64,000 nucleotides of DNA from Cyclobacteriaceae bacterium. Lineage in GTDB: Bacteria > Bacteroidota > Bacteroidia > Cytophagales > Cyclobacteriaceae. Positions 6,005 through 10,854 of this stretch are shown here, piece by piece. The stretch lies in the NCBI GenBank assembly GCA_958296015.1, contig CATQIH010000032.1:85795-149794 (forward strand), given 5' to 3'. Position 1 is the stretch's first letter; each line of letters begins with the position of its first letter. The notes under the pieces are model-generated. The model made no database searches and had not been told where the DNA came from. It saw only the letters and a list, made by a program, of their open reading frames with translations. The position numbers and the translations under genes were made by a program.

Positions 6005-6742
6005 TCAAAACAGCTTACTTGCCTTTTTACCAATTGCTTTACCTAATGTTTTTAGAGAAAGATCAACGCCTACTGCACCGGTCTGCCAGTCATTGACCTG
6101 CTGCCTAAGCTTTTCAATACTTTGCCAAAATTTAGGATGAATTAAATTATCACCTTTGAATATTGGAAAGTCTGGCTTCACATTCTCATGGCAAACCAAA
6201 AACATGTTCTGTCTATACCAAATGTCTACTCTTTCATTATTCCATACCGCAGGACGGATTATATCGTAATATTCATAACCGTATCGCCTAAACTTCTCCT
6301 GCCAGTAAGCCGGCCATTGTTCATTCAGGTGATTTTGTCCGCCTTGTCCAGGTATGGCTGCTGAAAAAAGAATGGTCTTACTATGTTTGGTTAATGATGC
6401 CACAAAAACATCAGCAGCACTTTCCGGCAAATGCTCGGCTACTTCTAATGATACAGCCAGATCAAATATTCTGCCAAGGTTCAAGGGTTTTGTCAGGTCA
6501 TGGGCTACGAATCTTTCTTCTGCTATTTGTAGCATAGAGCGATCAACATAATTACCATCGACACCTGTAAAATCTGATATACCCATATCGTTAAATACTT
6601 TTAGCCAGGTACCTGTGCCGCAACCTACGTCTAAAATAGATTGGGGCTGAACATACTCAAACAGAATAGGCAATACTATTTCTGCTGCACGGGTGTTGTG
6701 CACATCTTCACTATGCACGTACAATGGATTCGCAGTTTTCAA
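6005..6742 (-). CDS. class I SAM-dependent methyltransferase
   Basis: ILDVGCGTG motif I; SLEVAEHL; AAIPGQGG.NHLNEQW. Confidence 0.9.
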   Translation of the reverse strand: MKTANPLYVHSEDVHNTRAAEIVLPILFEYVQPQSILDVGCGTGTWLKVFNDMGISDFTGVDGNYVDRSMLQIAEERFVAHDLTKPLNLGRIFDLAVSLEVAEHLPESAADVFVASLTKHSKTILFSAAIPGQGGQNHLNEQWPAYWQEKFRRYGYEYYDIIRPAVWNNERVDIWYRQNMFLVCHENVKPDFPIFKGDNLIHPKFWQSIEKLRQQVNDWQTGAVGVDLSLKTLGKAIGKKASKLF

Positions 6743-8006
6743 GCGTAAAAGAAATTTGAGGTTGATAAACTTTATTTAATGTAGGATTGACAAACACGCC
6801 ACTTTGAAAAACATCAGATGCTTTTAAATCCAGATAAAAAGCATCATTGATTGTGTCGAAGTTATCTTCGTTATCGCCAAAATACAGGTCTACTCCACAT
6901 TGTCCACTCCCATACATTGATACATTAGGAATGGAAACTGATATAACTCCTTCTTCCTGATCAGTGTATAACTTCTCAGAGGTATGACGGTTATTTATTC
7001 CAATAAAAGGCTCATCGTATGGTGATCTAATCACGATACCTAATATAGGATTGACAAGTGTATCTTCAAGTTTAAAGTAAAATTTTATACGCAAATCGTC
7101 TCCCGGAGCAAGTATGGTAGAAGGCTTGTCATTGACAAACACTTCAGCTTTTTGTAGACCAAAAGCTCTTCTATACTTTTTATTCTGGTGATTGCTTAAG
7201 TCAACCACATGAGAAAGATCTCCGTTTGCTTTACCAGCATTTAAATAACGGTTGATAGCTTCCGGGGCTTCTCCGTCAAAATATGTTTGTCCTGAGTGAA
7301 AAATAACTCCTCTGGTACACAATGACTCTACTGCCCCCATGTTATGACTCACAAACAACACCGTCCTACCTCCTCGCTGCGTCACATCTTCCATCTTGCC
7401 TAGGCACTTTTTCTGAAACTCGGCATCGCCTACGGCCAGTACTTCGTCGATGATCAATATCTCTGGTTCCAGGTGGGCGGCTACGGCAAAGGCCAGGCGT
7501 ACTTTCATGCCGCTGCTGTAGTGTTTCACTGGCGTATCTATGAACTTTTCTACGCCGGAGAAATCTATGATCTCATCAAACTTGGCTTTTACTTCGGTGC
7601 GGCGCATGCCCAGGATCGTGCCGTTGAGGTAGACGTTTTCTCTGCCAGTCAACTCTTCGTGGAAGCCAGTGCCTACTTCCAGCAGAGAGGATACACGGCC
7701 AAAGATCTCAAACCGGCCTTTGGTAGGCTCGGTGATGCGTGACAGAATTTTGAGCAGCGTACTTTTACCAGCCCCGTTGCGTCCGATAATGCCTACGGCT
7801 TCCCCTTGTTTGATCTCAAAGTTTACATCTTTCAGTGCCCAGAAGTCTTTTGGGTCTTGGGGATTGGGTTTTGGGGATTGGGTTTTGGGGCGAAAGAAAT
7901 GAGTTAGGCTTTCCCGGAAATCCCCGCTTTTCTGGCCGCCGTATCCCCGTTGGCCTAAGCTGTAGCGTTTACCCAAATTTTCTACTTTGATGGCAATGTC
8001 GGTCAT
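6711..8006 (-). CDS. wzt: polysaccharide ABC exporter ATP-binding subunit with Wzt C-terminal domain
   Basis: GRNGAGKST Walker A, YSSGMKVRLAF signature, IIDEVLAVGD Walker B, C-terminal extension. Confidence 0.93.
   Translation of the reverse strand: MTDIAIKVENLGKRYSLGQRGYGGQKSGDFRESLTHFFRPKTQSPKPNPQDPKDFWALKDVNFEIKQGEAVGIIGRNGAGKSTLLKILSRITEPTKGRFEIFGRVSSLLEVGTGFHEELTGRENVYLNGTILGMRRTEVKAKFDEIIDFSGVEKFIDTPVKHYSSGMKVRLAFAVAAHLEPEILIIDEVLAVGDAEFQKKCLGKMEDVTQRGGRTVLFVSHNMGAVESLCTRGVIFHSGQTYFDGEAPEAINRYLNAGKANGDLSHVVDLSNHQNKKYRRAFGLQKAEVFVNDKPSTILAPGDDLRIKFYFKLEDTLVNPILGIVIRSPYDEPFIGINNRHTSEKLYTDQEEGVISVSIPNVSMYGSGQCGVDLYFGDNEDNFDTINDAFYLDLKASDVFQSGVFVNPTLNKVYQPQISFTLENCESIVRA
7851..7890. repeat. 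G-rich 15 bp tandem repeat within the wzt N-terminal linker
   Basis: TGGGTCTTGGGGATTGGGTTTTGGGGATTGGGTTTTGGGG, encoding PKTQSPKPNPQDP. Confidence 0.8.
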
Positions 8007-8080
8007 GTTGTTTTACTTTTTTAAAATCCTGTTTATCCTAATCTATCCTGTACATCCCAATTTAGAAAGTAGCTTTTCCG

Positions 8081-8088
8081 TATATTTG
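8081..8088 (+). promoter_or_regulatory. Bacteroidota -7 promoter element of the TA operon
   Basis: TATATTTG matches TAnnTTTG, immediately before the antitoxin ATG. Confidence 0.5.
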
Positions 8089-8089
8089 C

Positions 8090-8317
8090 ATGATGAAACA
8101 TATTATTGTAGTTGATGACAGCAGCAAAGCAGGAAAAAGCCTGCTTGAACTTGCGGCAATACTAGCCGAGCGCGACAAAAATATCTTGCTAATGTCTGAA
8201 GAGGAAGAAGATAAAACATTGCTTAGAGAAATGCTGTCTTCCCACAAATCAGGCATCCTGGATGCTTCTGAAAAAGCAAAATTTCTTGACCAACTCAAGG
8301 AGCAGGCTGGTATATGA
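8090..8317 (+). CDS. putative antitoxin
   Basis: 75 aa with acidic patch, directly upstream of relE with an ATGA overlap. Confidence 0.7.
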   Translation: MMKHIIVVDDSSKAGKSLLELAAILAERDKNILLMSEEEEDKTLLREMLSSHKSGILDASEKAKFLDQLKEQAGI

Positions 8318-8595
8318 ATTTTGAAATTAGCAAAGACTTTCAAAAATCTTTCAACCGCCTTAAAGACAAAAAACTGGCTACTGCTATTCTTGCCGCCATT
8401 GATGAAGTAAACCAGGCTGAGCAACTTGCTGATATTAATCACCTTAAGAAGCTGAAAGGCCATGAAACTGCGTATCGTATCCGCACAGGAAATTATCGGA
8501 TTGGCGTTTTCGTTGAGCATGACGCTTCTGGTGAGCTTTCTATTATCTTTGCTGCTTTTTCGCATCGCAAAGATATTTACAAAAAATTTCCTTGA
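8314..8595 (+). CDS. relE: RelE/ParE family type II toxin
   Basis: KDFQKSFNRL...LKKLKGHETAYRIRTGNYRI. Confidence 0.88.
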   Translation: MNFEISKDFQKSFNRLKDKKLATAILAAIDEVNQAEQLADINHLKKLKGHETAYRIRTGNYRIGVFVEHDASGELSIIFAAFSHRKDIYKKFP

Positions 8596-8604
8596 AGCTT
8601 TTCT

Positions 8605-8811
8605 GCGAAAGAAATGAGCCAAGCTTTTACGCAGGTCACCGTGAATACGGTCGCCGTGAATACGGTCGCCGTGAATACGGTCGCCGTGAATACGGTCACC
8701 GCTTTTCTGGCCGCCGTATTCCACACCGGGCCGCCGGGCGGTAGATACTGCACGGTGGCCTAAGCTATAACGTTTGCCTAAATTTTCTACCTTGATGGCA
8801 ATGTCGGTCAT
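8605..8811 (-). pseudogene. duplicated 5' fragment of wzt
   Basis: MTDIAIKVENLGKRYSLG...YGGQKSGD...HFFR matches the N-terminus of 6711-8006; homology ends 9 bp from the relE stop. Confidence 0.85.
8634..8701. repeat. 15 bp tandem repeat x4 (GGTCRCCGTGAATAC), in frame GDRIH x4
   Basis: Direct reading; each unit contains the mini-hairpin CCGT-GAAT-ACGG. Confidence 0.9.
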
Positions 8812-8899
8812 GATATATAATATAATTTTTTATGAGCTATTTACTTTTGCCCAAACCGTTTACAAAAGATACTACAGCAAAACACCTTTTCTGTAGAAA

Positions 8900-9322
8900 T
8901 CATCCGTCTATTTGTGTCAGGGCAGTTTGGATAATCGCTTCCCGCTCTATTCTATGCTCAATCTCCTGATCGCTATACACACCTGCAAACGCTTCTTCAG
9001 CAGCGATAGCCAATGCATAGGGAAAAGCATCATGTAGAATGCTCTGTAATGTGTCTTTATCGGCGTACTTCCCTCCCGCCCTTCTGCGGTTATTCACTTT
9101 CTTGATATCACGAACCGCAAAATTAATAGCATTGTCCCAGGAACGTGTAGTACGGTTTTCCGCTGCCTGTTTGATAAGGTGAATGAGTAAAACAGTAGCA
9201 AAGCTATCAATCTTGTTTAGCTTATCGTCTCTGCTCATTTCTTCCAATTCGTTTACAATACCCAGAGCTTCCTCATAGTTTCGGGCTTCTATATGTTTTC
9301 GTAAGGCGATAAGTTCTTCCAT
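8900..9322 (-). CDS. DUF29 family protein
   Basis: LEEMSRDDKLNKIDSF...LLIHLIK...RSW pattern. Confidence 0.75.
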   Translation of the reverse strand: MEELIALRKHIEARNYEEALGIVNELEEMSRDDKLNKIDSFATVLLIHLIKQAAENRTTRSWDNAINFAVRDIKKVNNRRRAGGKYADKDTLQSILHDAFPYALAIAAEEAFAGVYSDQEIEHRIEREAIIQTALTQIDG

Positions 9323-9834
9323 ACAGCATCAAGTTTTGCTACAATTAACTTGTTTTCACAAACATAACCTACTTCTAACCTCTAAAATTCATCCTCAATG
9401 CTATGTGAGTCATGTAGTTTTAGTTTTTTTCTTATTTATTCACGCCAGTCAGTTGTAAGCCTGTTTATCACAAAGCTATGCAATATGTCTTCCAAAAAAA
9501 CAATAAGTAGGGTATTTGGCAAAGTTGCCATAACGTCACTAAGAACAGTAATATTTTTTATCTGAAATGATAAAAAATCACAAAATAATCTTTATTTAAT
9601 AATGAACATTTGGTGTTTTATAAAAGAGCGTGAATGAAAGAAAAATAGGGAAATGGTAGTTTTTTGCGTTAAAGCCTTCGAAGGTATCTGATCTGCCTGT
9701 TATTATATCAATACGCATATCTCCAATAAATACTTCATCTTTTGTAGAGTGACTAAAAAATCATTCAAGAAAAAATATTGTATATCACAGTCAGTTATTT
9801 GATATTTTTGCCGTTGAAATAGTGAAACAAACAA

Positions 9835-10854
9835 TTAAACCCTCTGTGTGCTGTTTCTCACTTTCAGTTCGGTTTTTAACGTGCGTTGCTGTGGCTCAAA
9901 ATGATCAGGATCTTCGAGTTGTTGCAGAAACAGCCGGGCCGTCTCCCGACCGATTTCATAAGTAGGTTGTGATACCGTGGTTAGCGTTGGCTCAATGAGC
10001 GAGGAGAAGGGTTCGTCGGTGAAGCCTATCACCGCTACTTCATCCGGTATGTTGATGCCCCTGGCTTTTAGCTCGGCTATCACACCATAAGCCGGGTAGT
10101 CGCTGACCACAAATACGGCATCAGGCATGTCTGGCAACAGCAGCAGTTCATGCATGGCTTTTCTGCCGCTCTCGATGCTGAAGTCACAGTATCTGATGTA
10201 TGCATCTTCTGTAGTTAGCTGGCAGCTATTCAAAGCGTCCAGATATCCCTGATAGCGATGTCGGCTCAGCTGTAGGTTTTGCGGACCGGCTATATGCGCT
10301 ATGCGCCTGTATCCTGTGCGTATGAGGTATTCTACGGCATGGTAGGCTCCCTGGTAATCATCTACCTCTACCCTGGAAGCATGTAGGCCATCCAGCGTTC
10401 TGTTGAAAGATACCAGCGGAACGCCTTTGTCTATCACAGCACTGAAATGCGCCAGGTCTTCTGTTTCTTTCGACTGCGAAACAATCAGTCCATCTACCCG
10501 GCTGTTGAGCAGCGTCTGCACATTGGCTACCTCGGTATCGTAGTTTTCATTCGATTGGCAGATCATGATGTTGTACCCTGCCTGAGATAATACATCCTGA
10601 ATGCCGCCGATAGCCGACGAATAAAAGTGAATCACAAAATTAGGAATGATCACGCCTACCGTATACGTTTTGCTTTTCACCAGGCTAAGTGCTACGGCAT
10701 TGGGGTGATAGTCCAGCTTCCGGGCCAGCGTTTCTACCGATCTGCGGGTGGCTGCATTTACATCCGGCAATCCACGGAGTGCCCTGGAAACGGTGGAAAC
10801 GGATATATTGAGTTCTCTGGCGATATCCTTGATTGTGATAGGTCTTTCTTTCAT
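9835..10854 (-). CDS. LacI-family transcriptional regulator
   Basis: TIKDIARELNISVSTVSRAL HTH plus periplasmic-binding-like domain. Confidence 0.95.
   Translation of the reverse strand: MKERPITIKDIARELNISVSTVSRALRGLPDVNAATRRSVETLARKLDYHPNAVALSLVKSKTYTVGVIIPNFVIHFYSSAIGGIQDVLSQAGYNIMICQSNENYDTEVANVQTLLNSRVDGLIVSQSKETEDLAHFSAVIDKGVPLVSFNRTLDGLHASRVEVDDYQGAYHAVEYLIRTGYRRIAHIAGPQNLQLSRHRYQGYLDALNSCQLTTEDAYIRYCDFSIESGRKAMHELLLLPDMPDAVFVVSDYPAYGVIAELKARGINIPDEVAVIGFTDEPFSSLIEPTLTTVSQPTYEIGRETARLFLQQLEDPDHFEPQQRTLKTELKVRNSTQRV

What the first reader, a model, noticed from the sequence alone, without database searches (positions are those of the whole stretch)
7890..8811. Toxin-antitoxin module between two diverged copies of the wzt 5' end
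Seen: 8605-8811 and 7890-8006 both encode MTDIAIKVENLGKRYSLG...YGGQKSGD...HFFR but differ mostly at synonymous positions (AAG/AAA, TTA GGC/TTG GGT, CGT TAT/CGC TAC). The opposite-strand antitoxin-relE pair sits between them. Known: integrative elements often restore a target gene by carrying a replacement 5' end. Inference: a ~700 bp TA cassette with its own wzt start recombined in from another allele. It could stabilise the polysaccharide locus or allow excision via the duplicated ends. No integrase is present.
Basis: partly seen in the sequence, partly recalled or inferred. Interest (0 to 1): 0.65.

Follow-up and report, generated by a model that had tools for sequence, protein, structure and literature searches.

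The report
Displaced wzt start beside toxin-antitoxin
A small toxin-antitoxin gene pair sits between a dead first piece of one version of the sugar-export gene wzt and a complete second version. The same layout recurs in related bacteria, so it is a recombination scar at a hotspot, not a new kind of mobile element. One odd feature is that the opposite strand of the toxin-antitoxin pair is kept free of stop codons.

Summary
An intact wzt lies at 6711-8006 (-). A 72-codon wzt 5' stub lies at 8596-8811 (-). Between them, on the + strand, are a small antitoxin (8090-8317) and a RelE3-like toxin (8314-8595).

The two wzt heads are different alleles, not a local duplication. There are 14 synonymous against 8 non-synonymous differences, pS is 0.53 and pN/pS is about 0.15 (Jukes-Cantor dN/dS 0.09). 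Homology begins exactly at the ATG.

No integrase, terminal repeats or target duplication bound the cassette, and the longest perfect match between the copies is 21 nt.

Ten of the eleven other lineages I could examine with this toxin clade (at least 64% identity) have it in the same DUF29-wzt interval. There it often lies within stacks of wzt stubs and other toxin-antitoxin-like cassettes. Stub/head pairs in five other genomes also show pN/pS of 0.14-0.28.

My best reading is recurrent allele displacement by recombination at the wzt head, with the toxin-antitoxin pair favouring retention.

One unexplained feature is that the strand antisense to the toxin-antitoxin pair has far fewer stop codons than expected across 13 lineages (14 observed, 53 expected). 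In this window that open frame is fused in frame to the stub.

The parts
6711..8006 (-). Intact wzt, 431 aa: the ATP-binding subunit of an ABC polysaccharide exporter with a Wzt_C-type C-terminal domain. Its 3' end overlaps a methyltransferase gene (6005-6742).
   Evidence: ABC_tran scores 8.5e-24. Wzt_C scores 28.2 bits, just under the 30.4 cut-off. The NCBIfam Wzt/TagH models hit. Homologues carry PF14524. G+C is 50% in the nucleotide-binding domain and 36% in the C-terminal domain.
7878..8006 (-). Head of the intact wzt (codons 1-43), the part that is homologous to the stub.
   Evidence: Alignment. Homology starts at the ATG, and the upstream sequences are unrelated.
7850..7890 (-). 14-bp x 2.9 tandem repeat (TTGGGTTTTGGGGA) inside the variable linker of the intact wzt. 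It is in frame at present.
   Evidence: Tandem Repeats Finder, 96% matches.
8007..8089 (.). Divergent intergenic region between the wzt ATG and the antitoxin ATG. A Bacteroidota-type -7 box, TATATTTG, lies at 8081-8088 and abuts the antitoxin start.
   Evidence: Only the last 25 nt or so are conserved among the ten aligned toxin-antitoxin loci, and these include the TATATTT motif. Reading it as a promoter rests on the known TAnnTTTG consensus and is an inference.
8090..8317 (+). Putative antitoxin, 75 aa. The likely start is the second ATG, at 8093.
   Evidence: It overlaps the toxin by 4 nt (ATGA). It is conserved with the toxin in all relatives at 57-69% identity. It has no hit in Pfam, NCBIfam, PADLOC or PDB. 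The model is three helices with pLDDT 77, and no fold match was found.
8314..8595 (+). RelE3-like toxin of the RelE/ParE superfamily, 93 aa.
   Evidence: A profile of the clade matches M. jannaschii RelE3 (3bpq_B) end to end at E = 2.5e-15. The single sequence gives 5.4e-9. Many homologues carry PF05016. The window protein's own Pfam hit is weak, at E = 0.007.
8596..8811 (-). wzt 5' stub, 72 codons: the head of another wzt allele, cut after the equivalent of codon 43. It abuts the toxin stop codon with no spacer.
   Evidence: pS is 0.53, pN is 0.08, and neutrality is rejected at P = 2e-5.
8634..8701 (-). 15-nt x 4.5 tandem array (GGTCGCCGTGAATAC) in frame within the stub. It belongs to a genome-wide class of 15-nt arrays.
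8062..8811 (-). 249-codon open frame made of the stub fused in frame to the strand antisense to the whole toxin-antitoxin pair. It ends 55 nt before the wzt ATG.
   Evidence: The depletion of antisense stops is statistically supported across 13 lineages. There is no Pfam hit.
8900..9322 (-). DUF29 gene, the conserved upstream neighbour of the wzt locus in this group.
   Evidence: PF01724 scores 9.7e-6. Homologues lie upstream of wzt in G002, L025, L026, L028, L033, L034 and L070.

Best explanation
This is a recombination scar at a hotspot.

**What is there.** A RelE3-like type II toxin-antitoxin pair has its own promoter. It lies head to head with the working wzt and tail to tail with the dead 72-codon head of a second wzt allele.

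**How it arose (inferred).** One wzt allele displaced another. DNA carrying the toxin-antitoxin pair plus a wzt head recombined into a resident locus. One end used the conserved wzt sequence as homology. The other end was joined non-homologously at the toxin stop codon. The older head was left stranded upstream as a stub.

**Why I think it is recurrent.** The same process has run repeatedly in this Cytophagales group. It has produced stacks of wzt stubs interleaved with toxin-antitoxin-like cassettes between the DUF29 gene and wzt. No integrase or transposase is needed.

**Role of the pair (inferred).** As an addiction module, the toxin-antitoxin pair makes the recombinant arrangement hard to lose.

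**Shown and inferred.** Shown: two alleles, a recurrent architecture, no mobility signatures, and an old association between the toxin-antitoxin pair and wzt. Inferred: the direction of the event, the one-sided illegitimate join, and the stabilising role.
For: 1. **Two alleles.** There are 14 synonymous against 8 non-synonymous differences over 42 codons, with pS 0.53, pN 0.08 and pN/pS about 0.15 (Jukes-Cantor dN/dS 0.09). Neutrality is rejected at P = 2e-5. A model in which only one copy evolved neutrally is rejected at P = 0.003.
2. **Different upstream contexts.** Homology begins exactly at the ATG and the upstream regions are unrelated. That fits two genes from different contexts, not a duplicated DNA segment.
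3. **Recurrence.** Close toxin homologues (64-84% identity) in ten other lineages lie in the same DUF29-wzt interval. Most have wzt stubs abutting the toxin stop, and several have further stubs interleaved with PIN, DUF433, HEPN/MNT and DUF2442/DUF4160 cassettes.
4. **Stubs elsewhere were also working alleles.** Stub/head pairs in five other genomes give pN/pS 0.14-0.28 at pS 0.19-0.64.
5. **No mobility signatures.** The toxin-antitoxin pair is single-copy in this genome, and no inverted repeats bound the cassette.
6. **An empty-like state exists.** Same-genus G002 has DUF29, then 390 bp, then a single wzt with no toxin-antitoxin pair.
7. **The start of wzt is a hotspot more widely.** The cognate wzm is unlinked, on contig C20. 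G001 has 588 bp of non-coding sequence between wzm and wzt. L144 has an unrelated toxin-antitoxin pair there.
8. **A published analogue exists.** Addiction-type restriction-modification units occur between long direct repeats without mobility genes (PMC2853133).
Against: - No parental or empty-site sequence from the same species exists. The best full-length wzt relative is 69% identical. So the direction of the event, and which head is the resident one, cannot be decided.
- In every lineage the stub meets the toxin stop with essentially no spacer, but at a different wzt codon: about 43, 65, 82, 101 and 105. Random illegitimate joins or later deletions do not readily explain an end fixed on the toxin side.
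- The two window heads share derived residues that are absent from all relatives (DIAIKV, RYSLG, YGGQKSGD, HFFR). The donor must therefore have been a close relative, or the stub has been refreshed by homologous exchange.
- One member of the toxin clade (L143, 81% identity) is not at wzt. It lies between REP-type hairpins next to a Y1 transposase gene, so another route of movement exists.
Confidence: 0.55

Rival explanations
1. The unit is a self-propagating cassette with portable homology, which is the core of the first reader's idea. The unit of stub, toxin-antitoxin pair and wzt head would spread by the host's own homologous recombination. Its two wzt-head repeats pair with the single wzt of a naive genome, either as a double crossover or by Campbell-type entry of a circle. 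It could leave again by recombination between the repeats.
For: - The toxin-antitoxin pair is flanked by direct repeats of the wzt head in most lineages.
- The upstream region on the antitoxin side plus the wzt start is conserved as a unit in L025, L026, L027 and L034.
- The distribution is patchy within the genus: present here, absent in G001 and G002.
- A published analogue exists in restriction-modification units.
Against: - The repeats here are only 82.5% identical, are split by 30- and 60-nt insertions, and have at most 21 nt of perfect match. That is poor substrate for RecA.
- Synonymous divergence of the toxin-antitoxin genes between lineages is saturated and no lower than that of wzt, so there is no sign of recent spread.
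- The stub junction differs in each lineage. A circle propagated by homology would keep its junction.
Confidence: 0.2
2. The wzt 5' region was duplicated in place. The upstream copy then decayed, perhaps with occasional gene conversion from the intact copy.
For: The two heads are each other's closest relatives among all heads seen, at 89% over the first 57 nt against 74% or less to any other.
Against: - A pseudogene copy should gather non-synonymous changes. The observed 8 non-synonymous against 14 synonymous differences rejects a model with one neutral lineage at P = 0.003.
- The duplication boundary coincides with the start codon.
- The same excess of synonymous change is seen in five other genomes.
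Confidence: 0.08
3. The second wzt start is an assembly artefact.
For: None, beyond the genome being a 66-contig draft.
Against: - The copies are 17% diverged and carry different insertions.
- They lie 85 kb inside a 322-kb contig.
- The same layout occurs in independent assemblies from other samples.
Confidence: 0.01

Closest known systems
Insertion with long target duplication of restriction-modification gene complexes (Nobusato et al. 2000; Furuta et al. 2010, PMC2853133)
   Same: - A small addiction-type gene unit sits between long direct repeats of host sequence.
- There is no integrase, transposase or terminal inverted repeats.
- It is found by comparison with relatives that lack the insert.
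   Different: - In the published cases the two repeats are nearly identical to each other and to the empty site, for example 417/423 and 388/397. Here they are 82.5% identical with half the synonymous sites changed, so they are two alleles rather than a duplicated target.
- The cargo is a toxin-antitoxin pair, not a restriction-modification system.
- The site is reused repeatedly, giving stacks.
Displacement (orphan) arrays of rhs, cdi and T6SS effector-immunity loci. This comparison rests on my own knowledge and on an earlier scan note, not on a paper read here.
   Same: - A full-length gene lies next to a series of truncated copies of its conserved part.
- Each truncated copy is attached to a small toxin/immunity-type cassette.
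- The arrays are interpreted as successive allele displacement by recombination in the conserved region.
   Different: - In those loci the 3' tips are displaced downstream. Here the 5' heads are displaced upstream.
- wzt is a transporter ATPase, and the cassettes are independent toxin-antitoxin modules, not parts of the gene product.
Homology-facilitated illegitimate recombination during natural transformation (de Vries and Wackernagel 2002; Prudhomme et al. 2002). From my own knowledge.
   Same: One homologous anchor plus one non-homologous join would give exactly this product: a resident 5' stub, foreign DNA, and a restored gene.
   Different: - Competence, microhomology at the join and the parental sequences are all unknown here.
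- It does not predict that the foreign end should always be the toxin stop codon.
RelBE3 of Methanocaldococcus jannaschii (PDB 3bpq) and other type II RelE/ParE toxin-antitoxin modules
   Same: - The toxin aligns end to end with RelE3, including the YRIRVGNYRIG and HRKxIYxxFP motifs.
- A small upstream partner gene overlaps the toxin by 4 nt.
   Different: - The partner protein has no detectable similarity to any antitoxin family or solved fold.
- The antisense strand is kept open. I found no description of this for any toxin-antitoxin family.

Membership tests
Type II toxin-antitoxin, RelE/ParE superfamily | The toxin has RelE/ParE sequence homology. | tested here: met
   The clade profile matches 3bpq_B RelE3 at E = 2.5e-15 over the full length. 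Homologues carry PF05016. The window protein alone is below the Pfam cut-off, at 17.3 against 23 bits.
Type II toxin-antitoxin, RelE/ParE superfamily | A small partner gene lies immediately upstream in the same operon. | tested here: met
   A 75-aa ORF overlaps the toxin by ATGA. The pair is conserved in all relatives.
Type II toxin-antitoxin, RelE/ParE superfamily | The partner belongs to a recognisable antitoxin or DNA-binding fold. | tested here: inconclusive
   No family or PDB hit. The three-helix model has pLDDT 77 and no Foldseek match with E below 6.
Type II toxin-antitoxin, RelE/ParE superfamily | The toxin arrests growth and the partner neutralises it. | not testable with these tools
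   This needs expression in a laboratory strain.
Wzt (ATPase of ABC-transporter-dependent polysaccharide export) | An ABC nucleotide-binding domain plus a Wzt_C carbohydrate-binding domain. | tested here: met
   ABC_tran scores 8.5e-24. Wzt_C scores 28.2 bits, just under the 30.4 cut-off. Homologues are annotated with PF14524.
Wzt (ATPase of ABC-transporter-dependent polysaccharide export) | A partner wzm permease gene lies adjacent. | tested here: not met
   The upstream gene is DUF29. The orthologous wzm (85% identical to that of G001) is on contig C20 next to an IS200/RAYT-like gene. The closest wzt homologue, in L145, has wzm adjacent.
Insertion with long target duplication | The flanking direct repeats are copies of one target sequence and are nearly identical to each other. 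| tested here: not met
   104 of 126 nt are identical, pS is 0.53, and the insertions differ.
Insertion with long target duplication | A selfish gene unit is inserted without mobility genes or short target duplications. | tested here: met
   There is no transposase or integrase in 8007-8899, no terminal inverted repeats, and the pair is single-copy.
Insertion with long target duplication | A related genome has an empty site with one copy of the repeat. | tested here: inconclusive
   G002 has DUF29 and a single wzt, but it is another species at about 80% nt identity. No strain-level relative exists in the collections.
Integrative element or integron cassette | An integrase or recombinase and attachment sites. 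| tested here: not met
   No such gene lies in the interval. There is no conserved sequence beyond the toxin stop, no Rfam hit, and no flanking inverted repeats.
Displacement arrays (rhs/cdi-like logic) | Several truncated copies of the conserved gene part are stacked with cassettes next to one full gene. | tested here: met
   The window has one stub. Relatives have two to four or more: L026, L033, L034 and L070.

The most novel reading that the evidence does not exclude
This RelE3-like toxin-antitoxin subfamily may be built to be readable on its opposite strand.

**Evidence.**
- The antisense frame in register with the toxin codons is kept free of stop codons across both genes, even though the two genes are in different frames. 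Over 13 lineages there are 14 stops where 53 are expected. No simulation out of 2000 gave fewer than 30.
- Only TTA, CTA and TCA are avoided, and only in the toxin gene.
- Synonymous sites are otherwise saturated, so what is selected is openness, not a protein sequence.

**In this window.** The wzt stub supplies a start codon and is fused in frame to this open frame. The resulting 249-codon frame ends 55 nt before the wzt ATG.

**Proposed role.** Ribosomes starting on the stub could stay on a read-through transcript from upstream. That would spare the downstream wzt from Rho-dependent polarity, or couple expression of the toxin-antitoxin pair to the host operon.

**Implication.** The stub would then be a working part rather than debris. 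That would also explain why it always meets the toxin stop codon without a spacer.
Probability: 0.3. Interest if true: 0.8.

Novelty: new variant of a known kind. Interest (0 to 1): 0.55.

Why it matters
Surface-polysaccharide loci are among the most rapidly exchanged parts of bacterial genomes. How the exchange happens outside a few pathogens is poorly known.

This locus and its relatives give a readable record of it. Each displaced wzt head is a fossil of an earlier allele, and toxin-antitoxin cassettes mark the joins. It supports the view that addiction modules can settle next to conserved genes, and persist there, using only the host's recombination.

If the stop-free antisense strand of the toxin-antitoxin pair proves functional, it would show a selfish cassette shaped to sit backwards inside a host operon without silencing it. 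As far as I could find, that has not been described, and it can be tested directly with reporter constructs.

Tried and rejected
- **Sequencing runs.** I tried to look for an excised junction, read-through transcripts and support for the assembly.
- **Strain-level relatives for a true empty site.** None exists among 5.8 billion proteins. The best full-length wzt is 69% identical.
- **A 3' wzt remnant downstream,** expected if a large island had inserted into wzt. None was found within about 30 kb.
- **Terminal inverted repeats or hairpins bounding the cassette.** None was found.
- **Rfam families in 7600-9900.** None.
- **Antitoxin identity.** Pfam, NCBIfam, PADLOC, PDB sequence search and Foldseek on a pLDDT-77 model gave nothing.
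- **A family for the antisense ORF.** None in Pfam.
- **Literature on wzt with toxin-antitoxin systems or gene remnants.** Nothing relevant.
- **Recent horizontal transfer of the toxin-antitoxin pair.** Rejected, because its synonymous divergence between lineages is saturated, like that of wzt.
- **General codon bias as the cause of the open antisense frame.** Rejected. Other A-ending codons in the toxin, and TTA/CTA/TCA in the antitoxin's own frame, are at background frequency.
- **Open antisense frames as a general property of opposite-strand toxin-antitoxin pairs at wzt.** Rejected. The unrelated pair in L144 has 12-20 stops in each antisense frame.
- **In-frame fusion of stub and antisense frame as a general rule.** It holds in 3 of 5 lineages, which is not significant.
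- **The metagenome scan** added only one new close relative (L115, not examined further) and otherwise served as controls.
Full report
**1. Observation**

The minus strand of 6711-8006 encodes a 431-aa Wzt-type ABC ATPase. ABC_tran scores 8.5e-24 and Wzt_C scores 28.2 bits. NCBIfam Wzt/TagH models also hit.

A second copy of its first 43 codons lies at 8596-8811 on the same strand. It carries two in-frame insertions:
- 30 nt at about 8722-8751;
- a 15-nt x 4.5 tandem array at 8634-8701, which encodes (GDRIH)4.

Over 126 alignable nt the copies are 82.5% identical, and the longest perfect match is 21 nt. The stub is found nowhere else in the 5.9-Mb genome.

Between the copies, on the plus strand, a 75-aa ORF (8090-8317) overlaps a 93-aa ORF (8314-8595) by 4 nt. 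A profile of the 93-aa protein and its close relatives matches M. jannaschii RelE3 (PDB 3bpq_B) end to end at E = 2.5e-15. Many homologues carry PF05016.

The 75-aa partner has no family, PDB or fold match. I call it an antitoxin from its position and its co-conservation with the toxin only.

**2. The two heads are two alleles**

Over 42 aligned codons there are 14 synonymous and 8 non-synonymous differences. pS is 0.53, pN is 0.08 and pN/pS is about 0.15 (Jukes-Cantor dN/dS 0.09).
- Neutral divergence is rejected at P = 2e-5.
- A model in which one copy drifted as a pseudogene while the other stayed constrained is rejected at P = 0.003.

Homology begins exactly at the ATG, and the upstream regions are unrelated.

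Both heads therefore spent most of their separation as working gene starts in different contexts and were later brought together. It argues against a local duplication and against an assembly artefact.

Both heads share residues seen in no relative (DIAIKV, RYSLG, YGGQKSGD, HFFR). The two alleles therefore came from closely related populations.

**3. Context in this genome**

- Upstream of the stub is a DUF29 gene (8900-9322), then a LacI-type regulator.
- The orthologous wzm permease gene is not here. It sits on contig C20, followed by an IS200/RAYT-like gene.
- wzt is followed by an overlapping methyltransferase gene, an IS4 element, a DUF559 gene and glycosyltransferase genes.
- G+C drops from 50% in the wzt nucleotide-binding domain to 36% in its C-terminal domain and 37-41% in the downstream glycan genes. 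The toxin-antitoxin genes are at 39-41%.
- The toxin-antitoxin pair is single-copy.
- No inverted repeats bound it, and no Rfam family is present.

**4. Relatives**

Same-genus and same-family genomes:
- G002 (same genus) has DUF29, then 390 bp, then a single wzt with no toxin-antitoxin pair.
- G001 (same genus) has wzm, then 588 non-coding bp, then wzt.
- G019, the record named Porifericola rhodea (5,487,627-bp contig), and L145 have wzm directly joined to wzt.

Contexts of the toxin clade (64-84% identity) were recovered for eleven other lineages, from metagenome contigs and GTDB species genomes: L025, L026, L027, L028-31, L032, L033, L034, L070 and L143.
- In ten of them the toxin-antitoxin pair lies in the DUF29-wzt interval, divergent from a wzt copy.
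- In all ten except the two with a truncated toxin (L034, L070), a wzt 5' fragment runs straight into the toxin stop codon.
- The junction differs by lineage, at about wzt codon 43 here, 65 in L032, 82 in L028-31, 101 in L025-27 and 105 in L033.
- Several loci are stacks. L026, L033, L034 and L070 carry two to four or more wzt heads. These are interleaved with PIN/antitoxin, DUF433, HEPN/MNT and DUF2442/DUF4160 cassettes and, in L034 and L070, a gene whose product I recognise by eye as Rpn-type PD-(D/E)XK, without a test.
- Stub/head pairs in five of these genomes again show pN/pS 0.14-0.28 at pS 0.19-0.64. The stubs are displaced working alleles, and this has happened repeatedly.
- Only the stretch from about 25 nt before the antitoxin ATG, which includes a TATATTT(G/A) box, to the toxin stop is conserved between lineages.
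- Synonymous sites of the toxin-antitoxin genes are saturated between lineages, with pS 0.70-0.93. This is at least as high as for the wzt nucleotide-binding domain, at 0.64-0.72. The association of the toxin-antitoxin pair with wzt is therefore old, not a recent transfer.
- The exception is L143 (81% identity). There the pair lies between REP-type hairpins next to a Y1 transposase gene.

**5. Most likely mechanism**

The start of wzt is a recombination hotspot, and alleles are displaced there. Incoming DNA that carries an upstream cassette and its own wzt head recombines through the conserved wzt sequence at one end. It is joined without homology at the other end. This strands the previous head upstream. 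Toxin-antitoxin cassettes accumulate at the joins because, as addiction modules, they resist loss.

- Shown: two alleles, recurrence, absence of mobility signatures, and an old association.
- Inferred: which head is the resident one, the one-sided illegitimate join, and stabilisation by the toxin-antitoxin pair.

The nearest published pattern is insertion with long target duplication of restriction-modification units (PMC2853133). There, however, the repeats are nearly identical copies of one target, and that defining feature is not met here. In logic the locus resembles the displacement arrays of rhs and cdi loci, but at the 5' end of the gene.

**6. What this does not explain**

The stub meets the toxin stop codon with no spacer in every lineage, but at different wzt codons. 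Random joins or later deletions do not predict that.

A second oddity may be connected. The frame antisense to the toxin-antitoxin pair, in register with the toxin codons, has no stop across the whole pair here and in L028-31, L032 and L033. Synonymous randomisation gives P = 0.046, 0.046, 0.006 and 0.011 respectively. The same holds in more distant members of the subfamily that are not at wzt: L037, L073, L078 and L079.

An unselected test over 13 lineages gave these counts:

| Part | Antisense stops observed | Expected | P |
|---|---|---|---|
| Toxin | 7 | 34.1 | 2e-8 |
| Antitoxin (a different register) | 7 | 19.1 | 0.0014 |
| Total | 14 | 53 | none of 2000 simulations gave fewer than 30 |

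Further points:
- In the nine lineages whose antisense frame is open (zero TTA, CTA and TCA in the toxin by selection), other A-ending codons in the toxin are at background frequency. The antitoxin uses TTA, CTA and TCA freely in its own frame.
- More distant toxins have an open antisense frame in only 2 of 18 cases.
- An unrelated opposite-strand toxin-antitoxin pair at wzt, in L144, has 12-20 antisense stops in each frame.
- Because synonymous sites are saturated, what is selected is openness, not an antisense protein. The product has no Pfam family.

In this window the stub is fused in frame to that open frame. The result is a 249-codon ORF (8811 to 8062) that ends 55 nt before the wzt ATG. 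L033 has the same arrangement: 295 codons ending 58 nt before wzt. In L073 the antisense frame ends 2 nt before the next host gene.

One reading is that the cassette tolerates, or exploits, translation coming from the host operon. That would avoid polarity on wzt. I give this 0.3.

Evidence against it:
- L025-27 and L143 have antisense stops.
- In-frame fusion is seen in only 3 of 5 wzt-linked lineages, which is not significant.

**7. Side observation**

The (GDRIH)4 array is one of about 50 GC-rich 15-nt tandem arrays in this genome, and 42 of them lie inside open frames of at least 150 codons.

The same 15-nt unit, CCCCGTGGATACGGG, occurs as single in-frame insertions in wzt heads and stubs of several genomes. 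It reads PRGYG, AVSTG or RIHGD, depending on orientation and frame. One copy is at codons 19-23 (QRGYG) of the intact window gene.

**8. Verdict**

This is a real and fairly old recombination scar at a recurrent hotspot. It is a new variant of known patterns (addiction genes between duplicated host sequence, and displacement arrays), not a new mobile element. Its interest is raised by the fixed junction at the toxin stop and by the stop-free antisense strand, both of which remain unexplained.

Noticed in passing
window 8634-8701; genome-wide, e.g. G000 C49:36412-36670, C26:27662-27793, C32:299141-299219, C43:3886-3938: The genome holds about 50 GC-rich 15-nt tandem arrays of 2.5-17 copies. Many units look by eye like 4-6-bp-stem mini-hairpins. 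42 of the 50 lie inside open frames of at least 150 codons, often near the N-terminus, so they are in frame in coding genes. One example sits in front of the GxGxxG motif of an oxidoreductase-like ORF. TRF also shows excesses at periods 14, 15, 21 and 42.
   Followed up: partly
window 7941-7955 (codons 19-23, QRGYG) and 8722-8751; L025:3527, L026:3524, L033:6663, L034:7257, L070:5749: One 15-nt unit (CCCCGTGGATACGGG) recurs as single in-frame insertions in wzt heads and stubs of different genomes. It occurs in both orientations and several frames, reading PRGYG, AVSTG or RIHGD. It behaves like a tiny insertion element that is tolerated inside coding sequence.
   Followed up: partly
window 7850-7890: The intact wzt carries a 14-bp x 2.9 tandem repeat in its variable linker. 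Gain or loss of one unit would shift the reading frame, so it could act as a slipped-strand on/off switch for the exporter.
   Followed up: no
G000 C20:361214-362919: The orthologous wzm permease gene is separated from wzt and followed by an IS200/RAYT-like gene. The genome also has a second complete wzm-wzt pair (C21:47207-48798) and a pseudogenised pair with several stops (C33:87316-88951).
   Followed up: partly
window 6711-7877: There is a sharp G+C break inside wzt: 50% in the nucleotide-binding domain and 36% in the C-terminal domain and downstream glycan genes. This suggests a second recombination boundary at the domain junction.
   Followed up: no
L143:1-1728: A toxin-antitoxin pair of the same clade (toxin 81% identical) lies between REP-type hairpins next to a Y1 (IS200/RAYT-type) transposase gene instead of at wzt. 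Its antisense frame has stops.
   Followed up: partly
L034:4077-4979 and L070:4275-5156: A gene lies between a long wzt stub and the full wzt. I recognised its product by eye as a 300-aa Rpn/YhgA-type PD-(D/E)XK protein. If that is right, it could be a local source of RecA-independent recombination.
   Followed up: no
L025:4283-4560: A 14-nt unit (GGGCGTCCCCGACT) is expanded to about 17 copies directly after the toxin stop, inside the wzt stub. Sister contigs L026 and L027 have 2-3 copies, and L027 has one further copy inserted in the Walker A region of its stub.
   Followed up: no
L073:1497-4169: A more distant member of the toxin-antitoxin subfamily sits backwards between an ABC permease gene and a LolA-like gene. 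Its open antisense frame (2776 to 2243) ends 2 nt before the next host gene's ATG.
   Followed up: partly
L144:2884-3562: In the closest wzt homologue's locus, an unrelated DUF3368/UPF0175 toxin-antitoxin pair lies on the opposite strand between wzm and wzt. This shows that the wzm/wzt junction attracts different toxin-antitoxin families.
   Followed up: partly
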